A stretch of 39,899 nt of DNA from Pseudomonadota bacterium (GTDB taxonomy: Bacteria > Pseudomonadota > Gammaproteobacteria > Burkholderiales > Burkholderiaceae_C): the NCBI GenBank assembly GCA_021825505.1, contig JAKAHP010000001.1, positions 1 through 39,899 on the forward strand, written 5' to 3'. Both the position numbers and the translations under genes were made by a program. Of the stretch, positions 1 to 6,754 are shown piece after piece. The notes beneath the pieces were generated by a model. The model ran no database searches and was not told where the DNA came from. It was given only the letters and a program-made list of their open reading frames with translations. Position 1 is the stretch's first letter, and each line of letters starts with the position of its first letter.

Positions 1-795
1 ACGGAAATAGATCCCGGTCTTGCCGACGCCGTCGGTGTAGTTGCCCTTCGTGACCACATAGCGGTTGCCGGTCACGCTGGGCGAACCCGGAAACTGGTCG
101 AACTTGATGCCGGTGGTGCTCGCGTTGGGCACCTGCATATAGGAGAACTCGGGTACGGCGCCGAGCAGGTTGATGCCGGTCGCGAGCCCGCCAGGCAGCG
201 TCACGTACACCCCGCTGGTCCCCGCGCGCGTGTCGGTACCGGTCAGCGGATCGGTGTAGGTCCACACCGGCGTGGTCTGCCCGCGCGTGGCGACCATCCC
301 GCTGCTCATGTCGATGCGCGGGATCGACGGGAACTCGTTGAACGTCGCGTCGGTATTGTTCGGCGCCGGCACCGCGACGTTGGCGGTGTCGGCGACCGTG
401 TACAGCGTGGTCGTCGTCGGGCACATGTCGGCGGTGTAGATGCCGCGTTGCGGCTGCGTGCCGCCGCTGCCGCCCGAGCCGCTGGTGCCTTCGCCGGTGG
501 CCGACTTGGCGCGCCCGCGGAACACGACCAGACCGTACGTATTGACCGAGGGCTGGTTGTAGCTGAAGAAGGTCAGTCCAGGCGAATCGGGCATCAGCGT
601 CGCGTTGTTCGCGACGGTCTTCCAGGCGCCGATGACGTCGTTGCCGGGTACGCAGGTCACGACGTTGTCGCCTGGCTTCGACGGGTCGTAGGGATTGAGC
701 GCGGTCGACGAACTGCCGCCGCCGCCGCAGCTGACGAGCGTCGCGGCGACGGCGACGCCGAGGACTCGGATTACAGGAAGTTTCGTTGTCATCAT
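1..795 (-). CDS. Lipoprotein with internal repeats, probable beta-propeller (3' end outside window)
   Basis: Not in the ORF track; translated by hand. Open frame from ATGATG at 795 to base 1, with GGAG upstream. MMTTKLPVIRVLGVAVAATLVSC-GGGG is a signal peptide with a lipobox. Three ~75-aa repeats share F-x(3-5)-P-x-[VI]...V-x-x-[RK]G...G[IV]Y. Confidence 0.8.
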   Translation of the reverse strand, partial: MMTTKLPVIRVLGVAVAATLVSCGGGGSSSTALNPYDPSKPGDNVVTCVPGNDVIGAWKTVANNATLMPDSPGLTFFSYNQPSVNTYGLVVFRGRAKSATGEGTSGSGGSGGTQPQRGIYTADMCPTTTTLYTVADTANVAVPAPNNTDATFNEFPSIPRIDMSSGMVATRGQTTPVWTYTDPLTGTDTRAGTSGVYVTLPGGLATGINLLGAVPEFSYMQVPNASTTGIKFDQFPGSPSVTGNRYVVTKGNYTDGVGKTGIYFR

Positions 796-860
796 GCGCT
801 CCCAGAATGTGCAAGATGTAAATGACTGTTTCAGTGTGAACCAGGATGCCAAGAACTTCA

Positions 861-874
861 TTGCGCTAGCGCAA
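861..874. promoter_or_regulatory. Perfect 14-bp palindrome TTGCGCTAGCGCAA, CRP/FNR-like geometry
   Basis: Lies between the divergent lipoprotein and activator genes. Spacing is TTGnn-N4-nnCAA. Confidence 0.4.
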
Positions 875-1030
875 AAGGTGTCACCGGATCCGGGGAGACC
901 GGACAAACCGCATCGGCGGATCGTGTCATGTCAACAAATGCAACTCCAGCATGTTTCGTGGCGTGGCTCGGCTGCCCACAATGGCGCGACGCGGTGCCGG
1001 CCGATCCGGCGCGGCGACGGAGCCTGGTCC

Positions 1031-2392
1031 ATGCCCCCTCTTCCCACGATCGAGCTGTTCGTTTTCGGCGCATTGCCCAGTCGGGACTGGCGCGCCGCGC
1101 TCGACGACACCGGTTTCGACTGGCAGCCGACACCCGGCGTGGAAGCCTTGCGCGCGGCGTTGCGCCGCAGCGGCGATGGCGTGTGCGGCGTGCTGCTCGA
1201 CTTGCGCGACATCCACGATGCCACGCTGCTGCAGGAACTGATCGGCGAACTCGCCGCGCCCCGCGTGCGCAGCCTGTGCGTGCAACGCGGCGATGCGACC
1301 GGGCGCCCGCTGCTGTTCGAGCTGGCGCTGCGCTACTGCGTCGACAATCTGGTCGAGCCCGTCGCGCCGGAAGTCCTCAGGCTGGCGCTCGACAGCCTGC
1401 ACCGCCGGCTGCGCCTGCTGGGGGTGGCGCGCGCGCAGCGCGAAGCCCCGGCGCAACTCGACGAGATGGTCGGCGCCAGCGCCTCGATGCAACGGCTGTT
1501 CACGCAGATCGAGAAGGTCGCGGCAGCCGATGTGCCGGTGTTCGTCGCCGGCGAAACCGGGGTCGGCAAGGAACTGGCCGCGCGCGCGATCCACCGGCTC
1601 TCGACGCGGCGTCACAAGCCCTTCGTCGCGATCAATTGCGGCGCGATTCCGCCGCACTTGCTGCAATCGGAACTGTTCGGCTACGAAAAAGGCGCATTCA
1701 CTGGGGCCAGCCAGCGCAAGATCGGCCGCATCGAGTCGGCCGCCGGTGGCACCCTGCTGCTCGACGAGATCGGTGACCTGCCGCTCGACGCGCAAGTCGG
1801 GCTGCTGCGCTTCCTGCAGGAAGGCCGCATCGAGCGCCTCGGCGGCACCACGTCGGTACAAGTCGATGCGCGCGTGATCTCGGCCACCCACGTCGACCTG
1901 GAGCATGCCCAGCGCGACGGGAGCTTCCGCAGCGACCTCTACCACCGGCTGTGCGTGGTCGAGATCGACGTGCCGCCGTTGCGCGCGCGCGACGACGACA
2001 TCGAGCGCCTTGCCCGGCATGCGCTCGAGCGCCACGCGCGCGACGCGCCACGACGCATCGCCGGCTTCACCGACGACGCGCTGCGCGCGATGCGCGCGCA
2101 CGGCTGGCCGGGCAATGTGCGCGAGTTGATCAACCGTGTGCGCCGCGCGATGGTCATGTGCGAAGGCGAACACATCAGCGCCGCCGACCTCGGGCTGGCG
2201 GCGCTGGCCGATGCCGCGCCGCCGGCGCGCAGCCTCGACGAGGTCCGCGACCTGGCGATCCGCCGCGCGATCGCGCTGGCGCTCGAGCGCAACCAGCGCA
2301 CGGTCGTGCGCGCCGCCGGCGAACTCGGTGTGTCACGCGCGACGCTGTACCGGCTGATGGAGCGCCACGGCATCGCCAACCGCGAGATCTAG
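1031..2392 (+). CDS. Sigma-54-dependent transcriptional activator (bEBP), VpsR-like degenerate receiver N-terminus
   Basis: Walker A GETGVGKE, ESELFG-like QSELFG, GAFTGA, Walker B LLLDEIG, WPGNVREL and a Fis-type HTH LGVSRATLYRLM. Start moved to ATG 1031, which has GGAG upstream. Confidence 0.93.
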   Translation: MPPLPTIELFVFGALPSRDWRAALDDTGFDWQPTPGVEALRAALRRSGDGVCGVLLDLRDIHDATLLQELIGELAAPRVRSLCVQRGDATGRPLLFELALRYCVDNLVEPVAPEVLRLALDSLHRRLRLLGVARAQREAPAQLDEMVGASASMQRLFTQIEKVAAADVPVFVAGETGVGKELAARAIHRLSTRRHKPFVAINCGAIPPHLLQSELFGYEKGAFTGASQRKIGRIESAAGGTLLLDEIGDLPLDAQVGLLRFLQEGRIERLGGTTSVQVDARVISATHVDLEHAQRDGSFRSDLYHRLCVVEIDVPPLRARDDDIERLARHALERHARDAPRRIAGFTDDALRAMRAHGWPGNVRELINRVRRAMVMCEGEHISAADLGLAALADAAPPARSLDEVRDLAIRRAIALALERNQRTVVRAAGELGVSRATLYRLMERHGIANREI

Positions 2393-2421
2393 CGTCGACG
2401 CACGAGCCCGCGGCGGGCCGG

Positions 2422-3804
2422 CTAGAACGTATAGGGGAAGCGCAGCGAGAGCGCGTAGTTCGGCGCGTCCGGAGTCAGTCCCGCCTGCAGCACCGCGCTC
2501 AGCGTCAGGTGCGAACTCAAGGCGTAGTTCATGCCGAAGCTCAATGACACGTTGGTGCTGGCGCTTCCGGTCACCGTCTGCCAGCCCTGCCCGGGCAGCT
2601 GCACCTTGGTCGAGCGCGCGAACAGCCCCGACACGCTGGTGCTGACCGACGCGCGATCGTTGAGCACCAGCGCAAAACCCCCGCCGAGCTGGAAGCCGTC
2701 GCCGAGCTTGACCCGTCCGCTGCTGTCGATCGTCGCCGGGTCGATCACGCCGACGTCGCGCGCGACGTTGTACAGATAGCCGACGCTGCCGAACAGCACG
2801 ACCGGATCATTGCTCTTCAGGAACGACACGCTGGGGTTGATGGTCCACACGCCGTTGCCGGTGGGCAGCCGCTGCGGCACCTGCAGATTCGAGTTGCTCG
2901 CGTCGGGCTGCGTCACCGCGATGCCGAACGGCGAGGTTCCGGTCGGTGCGGTGACCTTGAGCGAAGCGACGACGTCGGGCGCGTTCTCGTGCTCGCGCAG
3001 CAGCCGCCAGTCGAAGCCGAAGCTGACGTCACCGATGGCGTTGTCGCTGACGGACGCCTCGCTGATCGCGGTGCTCGACGCATTCTGCCCGGCGCTGAGG
3101 AAGGTACTGCTGCGCACGACGTAGGGCAGATCGAGGTTCAGGGTCAGATCGTCGCTCAGTCCGTACTGCGCGGCGAGGTCGAAAGTATGGATCTGCGCCT
3201 TGGTCTGCCCGACTGAAATATTGCCCAGAAAGATCGCGTCGAGCGCGAGAAAGCCGCTGAGCGAGAGCTGGCGGCGGTCGTAGTAGGTGTCGTTCCAGCC
3301 CGCGGTCAGCGTCAACTTGCGGTGGAACTGCGGCGCGTGCCCCTGCGCGGCGACTTCCGTCGGCGTTTGCCGGGCGTCGGCGGCCGCCTGCTGGCGCGAG
3401 GTGCCGAGCTCGGGCAGTGCCCCATCCGCGCCGGCGCCGGTCTGCGGCGCCGCGGCGGAGGCCTGCGCGAGCTGCAGCGGCGCGCCGGGCCGCGCCGGCA
3501 CCCCGGCGATGGCGCCGCCCTGCATCAGCTGGGCGTCGATCATGTCGCTCGGGTAGCCCTTGCCCCGCTCGAGCAGCTGCGCATCGCTCAGCGCCTGCCA
3601 TCCCGGCTGTTGCAATTGCACGACGCGCGCTCGCAGCGCGCCGATTTCGAGTTGCTGCTGCACGAGCTGCTGCCGCAACTGCTGCACCTGCTGCTGCAGC
3701 ACGGCCAGCGGGTCGGCGGCCAGCGTCTGCGCCGCGGCGGCGGCGGGCAGCAGCAGCGGCGCCGCGGCCGCCATGCAACGATGGAGTTTGCGGTGGAAGT
3801 TCAT
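2422..3804 (-). CDS. fapF: FapF-like outer-membrane beta-barrel amyloid secretion channel
   Basis: Signal peptide, Gln-rich coiled coil, low-complexity linker, then GFLALDAIFLG, APTG..PFG and LPTGNG motifs. Amphipathic strands end in FPYTF. Last gene of a fap-like operon. Confidence 0.8.
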   Translation of the reverse strand: MNFHRKLHRCMAAAAPLLLPAAAAAQTLAADPLAVLQQQVQQLRQQLVQQQLEIGALRARVVQLQQPGWQALSDAQLLERGKGYPSDMIDAQLMQGGAIAGVPARPGAPLQLAQASAAAPQTGAGADGALPELGTSRQQAAADARQTPTEVAAQGHAPQFHRKLTLTAGWNDTYYDRRQLSLSGFLALDAIFLGNISVGQTKAQIHTFDLAAQYGLSDDLTLNLDLPYVVRSSTFLSAGQNASSTAISEASVSDNAIGDVSFGFDWRLLREHENAPDVVASLKVTAPTGTSPFGIAVTQPDASNSNLQVPQRLPTGNGVWTINPSVSFLKSNDPVVLFGSVGYLYNVARDVGVIDPATIDSSGRVKLGDGFQLGGGFALVLNDRASVSTSVSGLFARSTKVQLPGQGWQTVTGSASTNVSLSFGMNYALSSHLTLSAVLQAGLTPDAPNYALSLRFPYTF

Positions 3805-3854
3805 GAGCCTGGTCGTTCGAGTTGTCGTTGGACTTGCCTGCGCGGCACGGGCAC

Positions 3855-4565
3855 TCAGTGGCGCGGCATCATGTTGTGCAGTTGCCCGAGCAGCGCCGGC
3901 GCGGCCGCGCCGGCGGTGGCCTGCGTCATCACCGTAAGCAGGGCGCTGTTGCTGACGCGTTGGCCGTCGCCGACGATGCGCAGCATCTGGCTGACGTAGC
4001 CGCCGGCGGCGCCGACCGCCTGCGTGGCCACGCCCAGCGGTGTAGCGATCGCCAGCACGACGCCGCCGCGGCCGTCGCCGGACACGCTGGCGCTCGACGC
4101 TCCGGCCTGGTAGCTCGCGCCCAGGCCGCCGGCGCCGGGCAGCGCCGGCGCCGCGCCGGCGCCGTCGACCAGGCGCACGACGAAGCTGTTCTGCCCTTGG
4201 TTGGCGTCGCCGGCGACTTGCGTCAGCTGGCCCACACCGTGCACCTGCAGGCTGCCGGCCGCGCTTCCGGTCGGCACGCCGGACACGCTGCCGCTGCCGC
4301 CGGCCGCACTGCTGAACTGTGCGAGCGGCCGGCCGGCGCCGAGGCCGTCGACCTGCACCGCGGCACGCGCGTCGAGCGCGCCTTGCGCGCCGCTCCAGCT
4401 CGACGCCAGTTCGAGGCGAAAACCGGTGATCGCGGTCGCCGGAAGCCCGCGGCCGCGCGCCTGCGCCAGCAGCGCGTCGGGCGCGACGCGCACTTCGGGT
4501 GCGGCCGCCTGCACCCCCGGCGCGAGCAGCGCCAGCAGCAGCGGGGAGAAATGGATGATGCGCAT
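3855..4565 (-). CDS. fapE: FapE-like secreted accessory protein
   Basis: Start at 4565 with GGAGA upstream. Signal peptide MRIIHFSPLLLALLAPGVQA, then DALLAQARGRG. Carries Fap-like half repeats (GVGQLTQVAGDANQGQN, VSQMLRIVGDGQRVSN). Sits between the C39 peptidase and the barrel. Confidence 0.65.
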   Translation of the reverse strand: MRIIHFSPLLLALLAPGVQAAAPEVRVAPDALLAQARGRGLPATAITGFRLELASSWSGAQGALDARAAVQVDGLGAGRPLAQFSSAAGGSGSVSGVPTGSAAGSLQVHGVGQLTQVAGDANQGQNSFVVRLVDGAGAAPALPGAGGLGASYQAGASSASVSGDGRGGVVLAIATPLGVATQAVGAAGGYVSQMLRIVGDGQRVSNSALLTVMTQATAGAAAPALLGQLHNMMPRH

Positions 4566-4593
4566 GGATGATCTCCCGAGTACGAGCGCACGC

Positions 4594-5319
4594 TCAGAAT
4601 CGGCCGAATCGGGGTATGCCGAAATCGAAGACTGCCGGCGGCCTGTGCAGCAAGGTGTCGCGCACGCGGCGCGCGTGCGCGAAGTTGTCGCGCAGCAGCG
4701 GCGAATCGGCGAGGAAGGGGCGGCCGACGACTGCCAGTACCAGTCCGCCCTGCCAACTGCGGGCAAACGCGTCGAGATACAGCGAACGGTTGCCCAGCGC
4801 CGGATCGCTGATGAACACGAGATCGTGGTCGACTTTCTTGACGACGACGAAATGGCTGTAGCCGCCGACTTCGAGCAGCACGATGACCGGAATGCGCAGC
4901 CTGCGCATCGCCGCCAGATTGACCTGGAAGCCGACCGCGTGCAGCCCCAGGCTGTCGACGTAGCGCTTCATGTCGAGCATCGAAAAGCCGCTCCTGAGCA
5001 CCTCGGCCGGGTCGTCGACGTGCCGCATCATCGCTTCGATGGTCTGCGTCTCGTCGAGCGTGTAGCCGTAGCCGTAGTCGAGCAGCGTGGCCAGCGCCGC
5101 AGCGCCGCAACTGTAGTCGCGCTGCTGCGCGATCATGTCGCGGTAGCGCAGTGCGCGCATGCCGCTCAGCCCCGAGCGCACCTGCAGTCCCGGCACCGGC
5201 AGCAGCTGCGCGGCCTCCAGCGGTGGCGCCGCCAGCGTCAGGCAACCCAGCGCCAGCGCGCCGCAACCGGCACGACACCCGCGCAGCGCGCGGGCGACGA
5301 CGGATGTCGTGCGGTTCAT
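4594..5319 (-). CDS. fapD: Stand-alone C39 family cysteine peptidase, FapD-like
   Basis: Signal peptide. QQRDYSCGAAALATLL supplies the catalytic Cys and oxyanion Gln, HFVVV the His and DPALG the Asp. No ABC-transporter domains. Confidence 0.88.
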   Translation of the reverse strand: MNRTTSVVARALRGCRAGCGALALGCLTLAAPPLEAAQLLPVPGLQVRSGLSGMRALRYRDMIAQQRDYSCGAAALATLLDYGYGYTLDETQTIEAMMRHVDDPAEVLRSGFSMLDMKRYVDSLGLHAVGFQVNLAAMRRLRIPVIVLLEVGGYSHFVVVKKVDHDLVFISDPALGNRSLYLDAFARSWQGGLVLAVVGRPFLADSPLLRDNFAHARRVRDTLLHRPPAVFDFGIPRFGRF

Positions 5320-5334
5320 CGCAGTTCCTCGCGT

Positions 5335-6135
5335 TCAGGGCGCGACGATCAGCGACAGGCCGTTGTGCTGCAGATTGCCGACGCCGGAGGCGACGTTGAC
5401 GCCGATGTTGCCCGAGGCATTCATCAGCGCATTGCCACCGATCGCCGCGGTGTTGGTGAAGCTGCCGGTCTGGGTGTTGCCCGACGCCGTCTGCATATTG
5501 GTCGCCGTGGCCATCGCCAGCACCGGGTTGGCGCTTTGCGTCACCGCCATGCCGTTGCTTTGCGCGTTGCCGACACCGGCGGCGACGTTGACCGCGATAT
5601 TGCCCGAGGATCCCGCCAGCGCACTGTCGCCCAGTGACGCCGTGACCGTATAGCCGTTGCCGCTCAGGCTGTTGCCCATCGCGGTCTGCGCATTGGCCAC
5701 ACCGGCGGTGCCGAATACGTTCTGCGCGGCGATCGCGGCGACCGCGGCGTCATTGGATTGCACGTTCTGCATGCCGGCCGCCGAGTTCAGGCCGATATTG
5801 CCTTTCGCGCCATTGGCTGCGTTGTTGCCGATCGAAGCCTGGAGGGTCGTGCTCGGCGGGTTGTTGCCGCCGTGATCGCCGTGATCGCCCTGGCCGCCGT
5901 GATCGTCCTGGCCGCCGGGGCCGCCGAGCGTCAGCACGACATTGCCGGTACTTTGCGAACTGTCGACGCTGGCGCCGGCACCGGCGTTGACGGTGATCTT
6001 GCCGCCAAGGCTGAAGCCCTGGTCCTGCCCACCATGGTCACCATGGTCGTAGGGCCCGCTCGCGTAGGCCGCGCCACCGGCGAACAGCACGGCAACGGCA
6101 ACGGCGGTCATTCTGGCGTTGAAGAGCGTTTTCAT
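5335..6135 (-). CDS. fapC: FapC-like major amyloid subunit (266 aa)
   Basis: ATG 6135 has GGAG upstream and overlaps the upstream stop (ATGA). Signal peptide ends AAYA. Three repeats: GNIGLNSAAGMQNVQSN, GNIAVNVAAGVGNAQSN and GNIGVNVASGVGNLQHN. Rich in G/A/N/S/Q. Confidence 0.82.
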   Translation of the reverse strand: MKTLFNARMTAVAVAVLFAGGAAYASGPYDHGDHGGQDQGFSLGGKITVNAGAGASVDSSQSTGNVVLTLGGPGGQDDHGGQGDHGDHGGNNPPSTTLQASIGNNAANGAKGNIGLNSAAGMQNVQSNDAAVAAIAAQNVFGTAGVANAQTAMGNSLSGNGYTVTASLGDSALAGSSGNIAVNVAAGVGNAQSNGMAVTQSANPVLAMATATNMQTASGNTQTGSFTNTAAIGGNALMNASGNIGVNVASGVGNLQHNGLSLIVAP

Positions 6136-6575
6136 CGAAGACTCCTGGAGTTGGACAAGGAAAGACCCGGCGTTTGCAGCACGAAGGCGTTGCCGGTGGA
6201 GTTGCCCAGGCCTGCCGTCTGGTTGACCTGCACCACGCCGGCTGCAGCCTGGAACGCGCTGGGTTCGATCAGCGCGCTCCTGCCCGACGGGGTGACAGGG
6301 CCGGCGGCCGACCCTGGACGCGGAGACACGGAGGCCAACTGGCCGTCCGTGGCGATGGCGAGGGAGCTTCCGATCCCGAGCACGACAGCGTTCGCCTGGC
6401 TGTTGCCAGAGCCGCTGGCCTGGTTGACCGCGATCACGCCGCGGGCGCCGGAAAACGCGCCGGCGCCGATCAGCGTCCGTTCGTCGGCATGTGCCAGACC
6501 CAGCACGGCGCACAGCGCCAGGCCCGACCCAGCGACTCTGCGGAAATCGACGGCAAACGCAGACGACAAAGGCAT
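6132..6575 (-). CDS. fapB: FapB-like minor amyloid subunit / nucleator
   Basis: GGAGG RBS and a signal peptide ending AHA. Two repeats: AFSGARGVIAVNQASGSGNSQAN and AFQAAAGVVQVNQTAGLGNSTGN. Confidence 0.72.
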   Translation of the reverse strand: MPLSSAFAVDFRRVAGSGLALCAVLGLAHADERTLIGAGAFSGARGVIAVNQASGSGNSQANAVVLGIGSSLAIATDGQLASVSPRPGSAAGPVTPSGRSALIEPSAFQAAAGVVQVNQTAGLGNSTGNAFVLQTPGLSLSNSRSLR

Positions 6576-6608
6576 CGAAGCACCCTCCGATCAGGATGCC
6601 CGGTCTCT

Positions 6609-6624
6609 TGCGAATGTCGTGCCA
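6609..6624 (-). promoter_or_regulatory. Sigma-54 (-24/-12) promoter of the fap-like operon
   Basis: Minus strand reads TGGCACGACATTCGCA, i.e. TGGCAC-N5-TCGCA with exact GG-N10-GC spacing. It lies about 35 bp upstream of the fapB-like start. Confidence 0.8.
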
Positions 6625-6700
6625 GCGGCCGCGCGCGAGCGCAAGCCCTTGTCAGGGCTTGATTCTGTCTGCAGTCAGGGGGCTGAAAATGCGCTGCGGC

Positions 6701-6747
6701 GTCGCAGGATCGAGACGCCGCAGCGACGGTCGTCTCAACGCCGAGGC
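6701..6747. promoter_or_regulatory. Two candidate upstream activator sites (GTCTCA-N4-TGAGAC-like)
   Basis: GTCGCA-GGAT-CGAGAC at 6701-6716 and GTCTCA-ACGC-CGAGGC at 6732-6747. They are 31 bp apart and about 80-125 bp upstream of the -24 element. Confidence 0.5.
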
Positions 6748-6754
6748 AGCGCGT

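What the first reader, a model, noticed from the sequence alone, without database searches (positions are those of the whole stretch)
1031..6747. Self-contained, sigma-54-controlled Fap-like functional amyloid system with non-canonical parts
Seen: five co-oriented genes, all with signal peptides: a two-repeat subunit, a three-repeat subunit, a C39 peptidase, an accessory protein and a coiled-coil beta-barrel. A -24/-12 promoter lies upstream and a bEBP gene converges on the 3' end. Established: this order and the GNxxxNxAxGxGNxQxN repeat match Pseudomonas fapBCDEF. Differences seen: no fapA and no room for one between promoter and first gene, two rather than three repeats in the FapB-like protein, and no C-terminal CxxC in the FapC-like protein. 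Inference: this is a divergent amyloid-export variant with its own activator in a Burkholderiales-like host. Fap homologues are known outside Pseudomonas, so the novelty is the architecture and regulation.
Basis: partly seen in the sequence, partly recalled or inferred. Interest (0 to 1): 0.85.

Follow-up and report, generated by a model that had tools for sequence, protein, structure and literature searches.

The report
Fap amyloid operon, two-repeat FapB
This is a five-gene Fap cluster that likely makes biofilm amyloid fibres under its own sigma-54 switch, a layout and control already described in Pseudomonas; its only unusual parts are a minor subunit shortened to two repeats and a changed residue pair in the export pore.

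Summary
The five genes match FapB, C, D, E and F in order. The FapC model superposes on the solved FapC fibril (Z 16.3), and FapF matches PDB 5o67 (E 1.8e-72).

Already published: fapA loss is the commonest deviation, and two-repeat FapB occurs (PMC3792158); an RpoN promoter with a reverse activator gene, brfA, after fapF was shown by knockouts in P. fluorescens (PMC9207406). I found that convergent layout in 10 other loci. CxxC is missing from 64 of 120 FapC homologues.

What is lineage-specific: FapB lost its first repeat in frame, kept in 7 of 16 homologue clusters, whereas 40 of 40 other loci have three. FapF of this clade has Gln and Thr where R157 and E111 lie; R157A blocks secretion in Pseudomonas. 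Two enhancer-like palindromes sit 92 and 123 bp upstream of the promoter. A close congener lacks exactly this module.

Fibre formation is untested. This scan noted similar Fap loci on other DNA before.

The parts
1031..2392 (+). BrfA-type sigma-54 enhancer-binding protein (453 aa): receiver-like N-terminal domain, AAA+ with GAFTGA (221), Walker A (174) and B (242), Fis-type HTH
   Evidence: Pfam PF00158 E 8.7e-68 and HTH_8; motifs; groups with fap-adjacent activators, SH-aLRT 98, quick tree; VpsR domain PF20161 not hit at E<=0.1
2422..3804 (-). fapF: outer-membrane barrel with N-terminal coiled-coil-like stretch (about residues 33-67) and two PTG motifs (287, 314); T167 and Q213 stand where Pseudomonas E111 and R157 lie
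   Evidence: NF058560 E 7.8e-97, below cut-off; PDB 5o67 E 1.8e-72; alignments
3855..4565 (-). fapE accessory subunit (236 aa)
   Evidence: NF058559 E 3.8e-13, below cut-off, only family hit; position in operon
4594..5319 (-). fapD C39 peptidase (241 aa) with Cys71, His156, Asp172
   Evidence: PF03412 E 7.6e-23; NF058616 E 2.2e-50 versus FilB 8.6e-32; motifs
5335..6135 (-). fapC major subunit (266 aa), three repeats, no cysteine, His/Gly/Asp-rich low-complexity stretches
   Evidence: NF058558 E 7.9e-23; PDB 9u4u E 1.4e-15; model pLDDT 82; Z 16.3, rmsd 2.3 over 150 residues to 9u4u
6132..6575 (-). fapB minor subunit (147 aa), repeats 2 and 3 only; signal peptide joined directly to repeat 2; stop overlaps the fapC start by 4 bases
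   Evidence: NF058557 E 4.7e-15 matching profile positions 82-185 of 190; alignments; repeat count
6610..6624 (-). sigma-54 -24/-12 promoter element TGGCAC-N5-TCGC
   Evidence: same element before fapB in L005, L006, L007, L073, L074; rpoN present in the genome over cut-off
6652..6664 (-). candidate IHF-like site between enhancer boxes and promoter (one mismatch to a recalled consensus; weak, untested)
   Evidence: read from sequence; not clearly kept in relatives
6701..6716 (.). promoter-proximal enhancer-like palindrome GTC(T/G)C-N6-G(A/C)GAC, 92 bp upstream of the -24 element
   Evidence: same 92-93 bp distance in L005, L007, L073, L074
6732..6747 (.). promoter-distal enhancer-like palindrome (one mismatch), 31 bp from the first
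   Evidence: the only promoter-like site of 242 in the genome with such a 31-bp pair

Best explanation
This is a fapBCDEF operon with its own BrfA-type activator, and it likely builds extracellular FapC amyloid fibres for a biofilm matrix. Shown from sequence: gene set, order, repeats, catalytic and activator motifs, promoter and paired palindromes. [quoted passage not shown] No FapA chaperone is used.
For: Each gene's best NCBIfam family is its Fap counterpart. FapF matches only FapF in the PDB (4 of 4 hits). The FapC model's best match among 48,161 chains is 9u4u at Z 16.3, next 4.2; Foldseek agrees (E 7.8e-8, the only match under 0.001). All frames are intact, and fapB shows dN/dS about 0.33 over its last 122 codons against congener G825. 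An activator lies within the fetched stretch in 15 of 18 class-level loci and is convergent after fapF in 10 loci besides the window (L019, L023, L031, L032, L043, L045, L050, L066, L071, L073); L023 is a Pseudomonas-type locus whose activator ORF is 1326 bp, the length given for brfA. The orthologous activator is in all 4 fap-bearing congeners and not found at E<=1e-80 in fap-less G015. Congener G009 keeps both flanks and lacks window 766-6754. Knockouts of rpoN and brfA lower fap transcription in PF07 (PMC9207406); BrfA is reported to sense c-di-GMP (PMC13101488 passages).
Against: All five proteins score below NCBIfam's curated cut-offs. FapF lacks the lumen arginine whose loss (R157A) stops secretion in Pseudomonas, and has no clear E98/F102 equivalent (PMC5557850 Table 1). 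The FapB model is poor (pLDDT 52.5, 10 sequences). The activator's N-terminal domain does not hit the VpsR profile that 5 of 6 other fap-adjacent activators hit, and my own N-terminal profile scored two unrelated activators of the genome higher, so c-di-GMP sensing is unsupported here. The enhancer motif was derived from these loci, so its match is partly circular. The tree was the quick version with long outgroup branches.
Confidence: 0.85

Rival explanations
1. The operon is decaying: loss of a FapB repeat and of FapF gate residues has left it unable to export amyloid, and it is being lost from the genus.
For: FapF is found in only 5 of 29 genomes of the genus; close congener G009 lacks the module; R157A, E98A and F102A each abolish secretion in Pseudomonas.
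Against: No stops or frameshifts. The 146-147 aa FapB is kept in six other clusters at 67-81% identity with dN/dS about 0.33 in one pair. Both salt-bridge partners are replaced by the same residues (T, Q) in 6 of 6 clade members, including a genome outside the genus. Promoter and boxes are conserved.
Confidence: 0.07
2. The operon makes Fap fibres, but the adjacent activator is not its regulator, or answers a signal other than c-di-GMP.
For: In congener G825 the activator is not next to fapF and lies on another contig; the genome has 8 other bEBPs; the N-terminal domain misses the VpsR profile; another sigma-54-like site on C236 carries similar boxes.
Against: Clade membership with fap-adjacent activators; co-occurrence in congeners; joint absence with the operon in G009; shared G-x-L-D-L and Y-C-x-D motifs with BrfA-type domains by eye. 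A different signal is not excluded.
Confidence: 0.06
3. The barrel and peptidase belong to a non-Fap system (SphA/MetA-pathway channel or Fil-type pilus) and the repeat proteins form a non-amyloid filament.
For: Pfam gives only PF13557 MetA-pathway for the barrel (E 1.5e-7); FilB and FilC models also hit.
Against: FapF model E 7.8e-97 against FilC 2.7e-13, FapD 2.2e-50 against FilB 8.6e-32; the score falls in the upper group (above 320 bits) of a two-group distribution in the order, the paralogues scoring 183 or less; FapC fold match.
Confidence: 0.02

Closest known systems
Pseudomonas fapABCDEF system (UK4, PAO1, PF07; FapF PDB 5o65/5o67/5o68; FapC fibrils 9u4u, 9nqd)
   Same: Gene order B-C-D-E-F, repeat motif, three-repeat FapC with the same predicted fold, C39 peptidase with catalytic Cys, barrel with coiled-coil-like N-terminus and two PTG motifs.
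   Different: No fapA; FapB has two repeats; FapC has no C-terminal CxxC; FapF has T/Q at E111/R157; all proteins below the Pseudomonas-tuned NCBIfam cut-offs.
RpoN/BrfA control of fap in P. fluorescens PF07 and SBW25 (PMC9207406; PMC13101488; bioRxiv 10.64898/2026.01.27.702051)
   Same: -24/-12 promoter before the first fap gene; activator gene on the opposite strand directly after fapF; intact GAFTGA.
   Different: Promoter opens directly on fapB; activator N-terminal domain too diverged to hit the VpsR profile; in three close relatives (L005-L007) the orthologous activator sits divergently upstream instead.
fapA-less (fapBCDEF) and short-FapB variants in Dueholm 2013 (PMC3792158) and GTDB surveys (PMC12392863, PMC12822426)
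   Same: fapBCDEF is counted as a canonical synteny; two-repeat FapB reported for Aeromonas and Acidithiobacillus.
   Different: Here the two-repeat form arose inside one Burkholderiales genus whose other members have three, beside a normal three-repeat FapC.
Paraburkholderia/Ralstonia/Pandoraea Fap homologues
   Same: CxxC-less FapC (12 of 12 named proteins checked); TCGC variant of the -12 element in related loci; activators of the same supported subclade.
   Different: Loci of that type examined here (L019, L066, L068-L071) carry a fapA-like gene, three-repeat FapB and the FapF lumen arginine.

Membership tests
Fap system, broad sense (fapABCDEF or fapBCDEF) | Two genes with Fap imperfect repeats (FapB then FapC) | tested here: met
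   NF058557 and NF058558 hits; repeat counts; PDB FapC hits
Fap system, broad sense (fapABCDEF or fapBCDEF) | Gene order (A)BCDEF in one co-oriented cluster | tested here: met
   fapBCDEF counted as canonical in PMC12822426 section 7
Fap system, broad sense (fapABCDEF or fapBCDEF) | FapC folds as the three-layer Greek-key beta-solenoid | tested here: met
   predicted model only: Z 16.3, rmsd 2.3, 150 residues to 9u4u
Fap system, broad sense (fapABCDEF or fapBCDEF) | FapD C39 peptidase with catalytic Cys and His | tested here: met
   PF03412 over cut-off; Cys71, His156
Fap system, broad sense (fapABCDEF or fapBCDEF) | FapF barrel with N-terminal coiled coil and two PTG motifs | tested here: met
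   5o67 alignment; both PTG kept; coiled coil judged by eye from the Q/L-rich heptads
Fap system, broad sense (fapABCDEF or fapBCDEF) | Secreted, SDS-resistant cross-beta fibres | not testable with these tools
   needs expression and formic-acid assay
Canonical Pseudomonas fapABCDEF (NCBIfam equivalogs) | Scores over curated cut-offs | tested here: not met
   55.7/190, 81.6/195, 171/330, 49.2/250, 324.7/700 bits
Canonical Pseudomonas fapABCDEF (NCBIfam equivalogs) | fapA as first gene | tested here: not met
   no room in the operon; not found in the 81%-complete genome with NF058556, NF058617, tblastn or a profile of 11 FapA-like proteins; controls rang in 4 of 17 and 2 of 5 genomes
Canonical Pseudomonas fapABCDEF (NCBIfam equivalogs) | Three-repeat FapB, C-terminal CxxC in FapC, lumen Arg157 in FapF | tested here: not met
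BrfA-type sigma-54 activator | AAA+ domain with GAFTGA, Walker A/B and C-terminal HTH | tested here: met
BrfA-type sigma-54 activator | Adjacent to fap and in one clade with fap-adjacent activators | tested here: met
   38-row clade, SH-aLRT 98, quick tree; it also holds 3 activators next to FapF paralogues; outgroup only the genome's 8 other bEBPs
BrfA-type sigma-54 activator | VpsR-type N-terminal domain | tested here: inconclusive
   PF20161 not hit in window or L007, hit in 5 others; aligns by eye
BrfA-type sigma-54 activator | Binds c-di-GMP and the fap upstream region | not testable with these tools
   Guo 2024 (PMID 39116779) seen only as a reference and through PMC13101488 passages
SphA/MetA-pathway or FilC channels without amyloid neighbours | Closer to those families than to FapF, no Fap-repeat neighbours | tested here: not met

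The most novel reading that the evidence does not exclude
This lineage runs a naturally minimised Fap machine: no FapA chaperone, a two-layer FapB made by clean loss of its weakest layer, and a FapF pore that exports amyloid without the E111-R157 pair although an arginine there is called vital in Pseudomonas. It would show that the near-universal three-layer FapB and the arginine gate are dispensable, and give a ready-made natural construct for testing how FapF gates.
Probability: 0.5. Interest if true: 0.35.

Novelty: new member of a known kind. Interest (0 to 1): 0.2.

Why it matters
It is a sound annotation of a biofilm amyloid module with its promoter, likely activator sites and clear boundaries in a Burkholderiales lineage. 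Its value to specialists is modest: a natural two-repeat FapB with three-repeat congeners as controls, and a FapF clade that has replaced both partners of a lumen salt bridge, are useful variants for asking why three repeats dominate and how the plug is gated. It opens no new kind of system.

Tried and rejected
Promoter by motif count alone: not significant. FapB structure prediction: low confidence, not searched. FapB-FapC complex prediction: not run, so stacking of the two-layer FapB on FapC stays open. RNA evidence: no RNA holder listed; one run of uncertain kind gave a single 256-base piece on fapC and short chance pieces, which says nothing on expression. Horizontal transfer as recent origin: not supported; third-position GC of module genes (0.81-0.91) equals flanking genes (0.83-0.90) and congener G826 has the module at the same site. 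The 90-aa ORF upstream as a FapA substitute: rejected; no signal peptide by eye, no family, present in fap-less G009 and not found in three fap-bearing congeners; atlas gave no usable hit. N-terminal-domain profile of fap-adjacent activators: not specific. A recalled VpsR consensus could not be confirmed in PMC6158489 passages, so no identity with VpsR sites is claimed. A replacement arginine in the FapF lumen: basic gains at three later positions were listed but could not be placed without a model. Metagenome scan found no member of the close clade (32 more distant loci; 13 of them mapped). Searches for printed accounts of CxxC distribution, of this two-repeat clade and of R157 variation listed none; only listings and the passages cited were seen, and supplements were not read.
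Full report
Observation. fapB overlaps fapC by four bases. The first protein has two repeats and the second three, without cysteine. The -24/-12 element at 6624-6610 lies 34 bases before the fapB start. By itself it is no more than chance (46 of 100 shuffles give one), but the same element precedes fapB in L005, L006, L007, L073 and L074. The genome encodes RpoN. Signal peptides were judged by eye and hydrophobicity only.

Identity of the genes. Each gene's best NCBIfam family is its Fap counterpart, all below the curated cut-offs. FapF matches only FapF entries in the PDB (E 1.8e-72) and FapC only FapC entries. An AlphaFold2 model of the 266-aa protein from 81 of the homologues (pLDDT 82) superposes on the FapC fibril 9u4u at Z 16.3, rmsd 2.3 over 150 residues, with the next chain at 4.2; Foldseek ranks the same entry first, with a looser fit (rmsd 7.2, TM 0.66 by target). 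In the host's order the FapF profile splits hits into a group above 320 bits, which includes the window, and paralogues at 183 or less.

Claimed differences against print. PMC3792158 (parts 1-3 of 5 read) gives absence of fapA as the commonest deviation, 6 of 16 genera, and two-repeat FapB in Aeromonas and Acidithiobacillus. PMC12822426 (section 7 and passages) counts fapBCDEF as canonical among 1602 GTDB clusters. PMC12392863 (section 2.1 and passages) finds three repeats in 93.9% of 1095 FapB. PMC9207406 (abstract, discussion, passages) maps a -24/-12 promoter before fapA and shows that brfA, a reverse gene directly after fapF, and rpoN are needed for fap transcription. PMC13101488 and a 2026 preprint (passages) cite BrfA as c-di-GMP responsive. 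PMC6173800 (passages) calls CxxC conserved but outside the fibre core; a 2026 preprint (passages) shows FapC without that tail still forms fibrils, more slowly. In my sample CxxC is missing from 64 of the best 120 of 318 homologues and from all 12 named Burkholderiales proteins checked.

Synteny. An activator lies within the fetched stretch in 15 of 18 class-level loci; two of the three without end at a contig edge. The convergent-after-fapF layout recurs in 10 loci besides the window, including the Pseudomonas-type L023, whose FapA, FapB and FapC pass NCBIfam cut-offs. The window's activator, 34 fap-adjacent activators and 3 next to FapF paralogues form one clade apart from the genome's 8 other bEBPs (SH-aLRT 98; quick tree, long outgroup branches). 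It keeps GAFTGA and both Walker motifs. Its N-terminal domain does not hit the VpsR profile that 5 of 6 other activators hit, so the inducing signal is inferred, not shown. FapA was not found in the 81%-complete genome by four searches with working controls.

Cis elements. Two palindromes of the form GTC(T/G)C-N6-G(A/C)GAC lie 92 and 123 bp upstream of the -24 element, 31 bp apart, here and in L005, L006 and L007; the proximal one is at 92 bp in L073 and L074, and a related box precedes fapA in L023. Of 242 promoter-like sites in the genome only this one has the 31-bp pair. The motif was derived from these loci, and looking for a pair was prompted by earlier scan notes, so this supports but does not prove activator binding.

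History in the genus. FapF is found in 5 of 29 genomes. G826 has the whole neighbourhood in the window's order with a three-repeat FapB. G009, closer by flanking genes (85% nucleotide identity), keeps both flanks and lacks window 766-6754, which bounds the module and confirms 'self-contained'; loss in G009 is the simpler reading. L005 and L007 (congeners) and L006 carry the orthologous activator divergently upstream; G825 has it away from fapF. The activator's position is thus labile.

What is unusual. First, FapB: the signal peptide joins directly to repeat 2, an in-frame loss of about 58 residues. Seven of 16 homologue clusters (the window and six at 67-81% identity) have two repeats, against 40 of 40 other loci with three (the profile was seeded on those loci). 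One pair gives dN/dS about 0.33. A 2026 FapB cryo-EM preprint (abstract and passages) calculates layer 1 as the weakest (-0.9 against -6.6 and -4.1 kcal/mol), which fits its loss being tolerated; this step is inference. Second, FapF: among 46 sequences the R157 column is Arg in 38, Gln in all 6 of this clade and Thr or Ser in two others, and E111 is Thr in the same six (numbering carried over through L023 and the 5o67 alignment). In PMC5557850 (section read) R157A, E98A, F102A and K401A block secretion, while E111R/R157E restores it. The plug columns are poorly aligned and variable (Glu in 17 of 46), so only the 111/157 change is firm. This counts against the best reading as much as it is a curiosity.

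Mechanism and verdict. Most likely the activator binds the two palindromes and opens the sigma-54 promoter, the subunits go through Sec and FapF with FapD activity, and FapC forms fibres modulated by a two-layer FapB (0.85; all functional steps inferred from Pseudomonas). Decay (0.07), a different regulator or signal (0.06) and a non-Fap system (0.02) are the rivals. It is a member of the Fap system in the broad sense, not of the Pseudomonas equivalog families. Architecture and regulation are known; the short FapB and altered pore are minor lineage traits. Novelty: new member of a known kind. Interest 0.2.

Noticed in passing
window:1-795 (-): Lipoprotein-like ORF running off the window, divergent from the activator; no Pfam or NCBIfam hit; 75-80% identical copies sit beside the activator in G826 and G825 and at the empty site in G009.
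   Followed up: partly
window:6755-7027 (-): 90-aa ORF ending just upstream of the distal palindrome; found in 3 of 29 genomes of the genus (58% in G826, 89% in fap-less G009); no family; not part of the module.
   Followed up: yes
window:7566-10988: PAS histidine kinase, GGDEF diguanylate cyclase and an HD-GYP-like phosphodiesterase lie 1-4 kb from the fap promoter; suggestive for c-di-GMP control, but all are kept in G009, which lacks fap.
   Followed up: partly
window:5860-6050 (-), FapC residues 29-38 and 76-92: His/Gly/Asp-rich stretches (DHGDHGG-like) outside the repeats; relatives vary them, one with a run of six His. Possible surface or metal-binding appendages; untested.
   Followed up: no
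L019:4461-14382: Two sister activators flank one fap operon, one convergent downstream and one divergent upstream; differential loss from such a state could explain the two layouts.
   Followed up: partly
L043:6027-7702; L045:5907-8492: Two and three tandem fapC-like genes in one operon.
   Followed up: no
L008, L010, L011, L020: Split layout with the activator between fapE and an inverted fapF.
   Followed up: no
G000:C236 near 14228 (-): Another sigma-54-like promoter with two similar palindromes 63 bp apart, next to a different bEBP gene.
   Followed up: no
L035, L039: Divergent loci with separated fapF and other subunit layouts also lack the R157 arginine (Thr, Ser).
   Followed up: no
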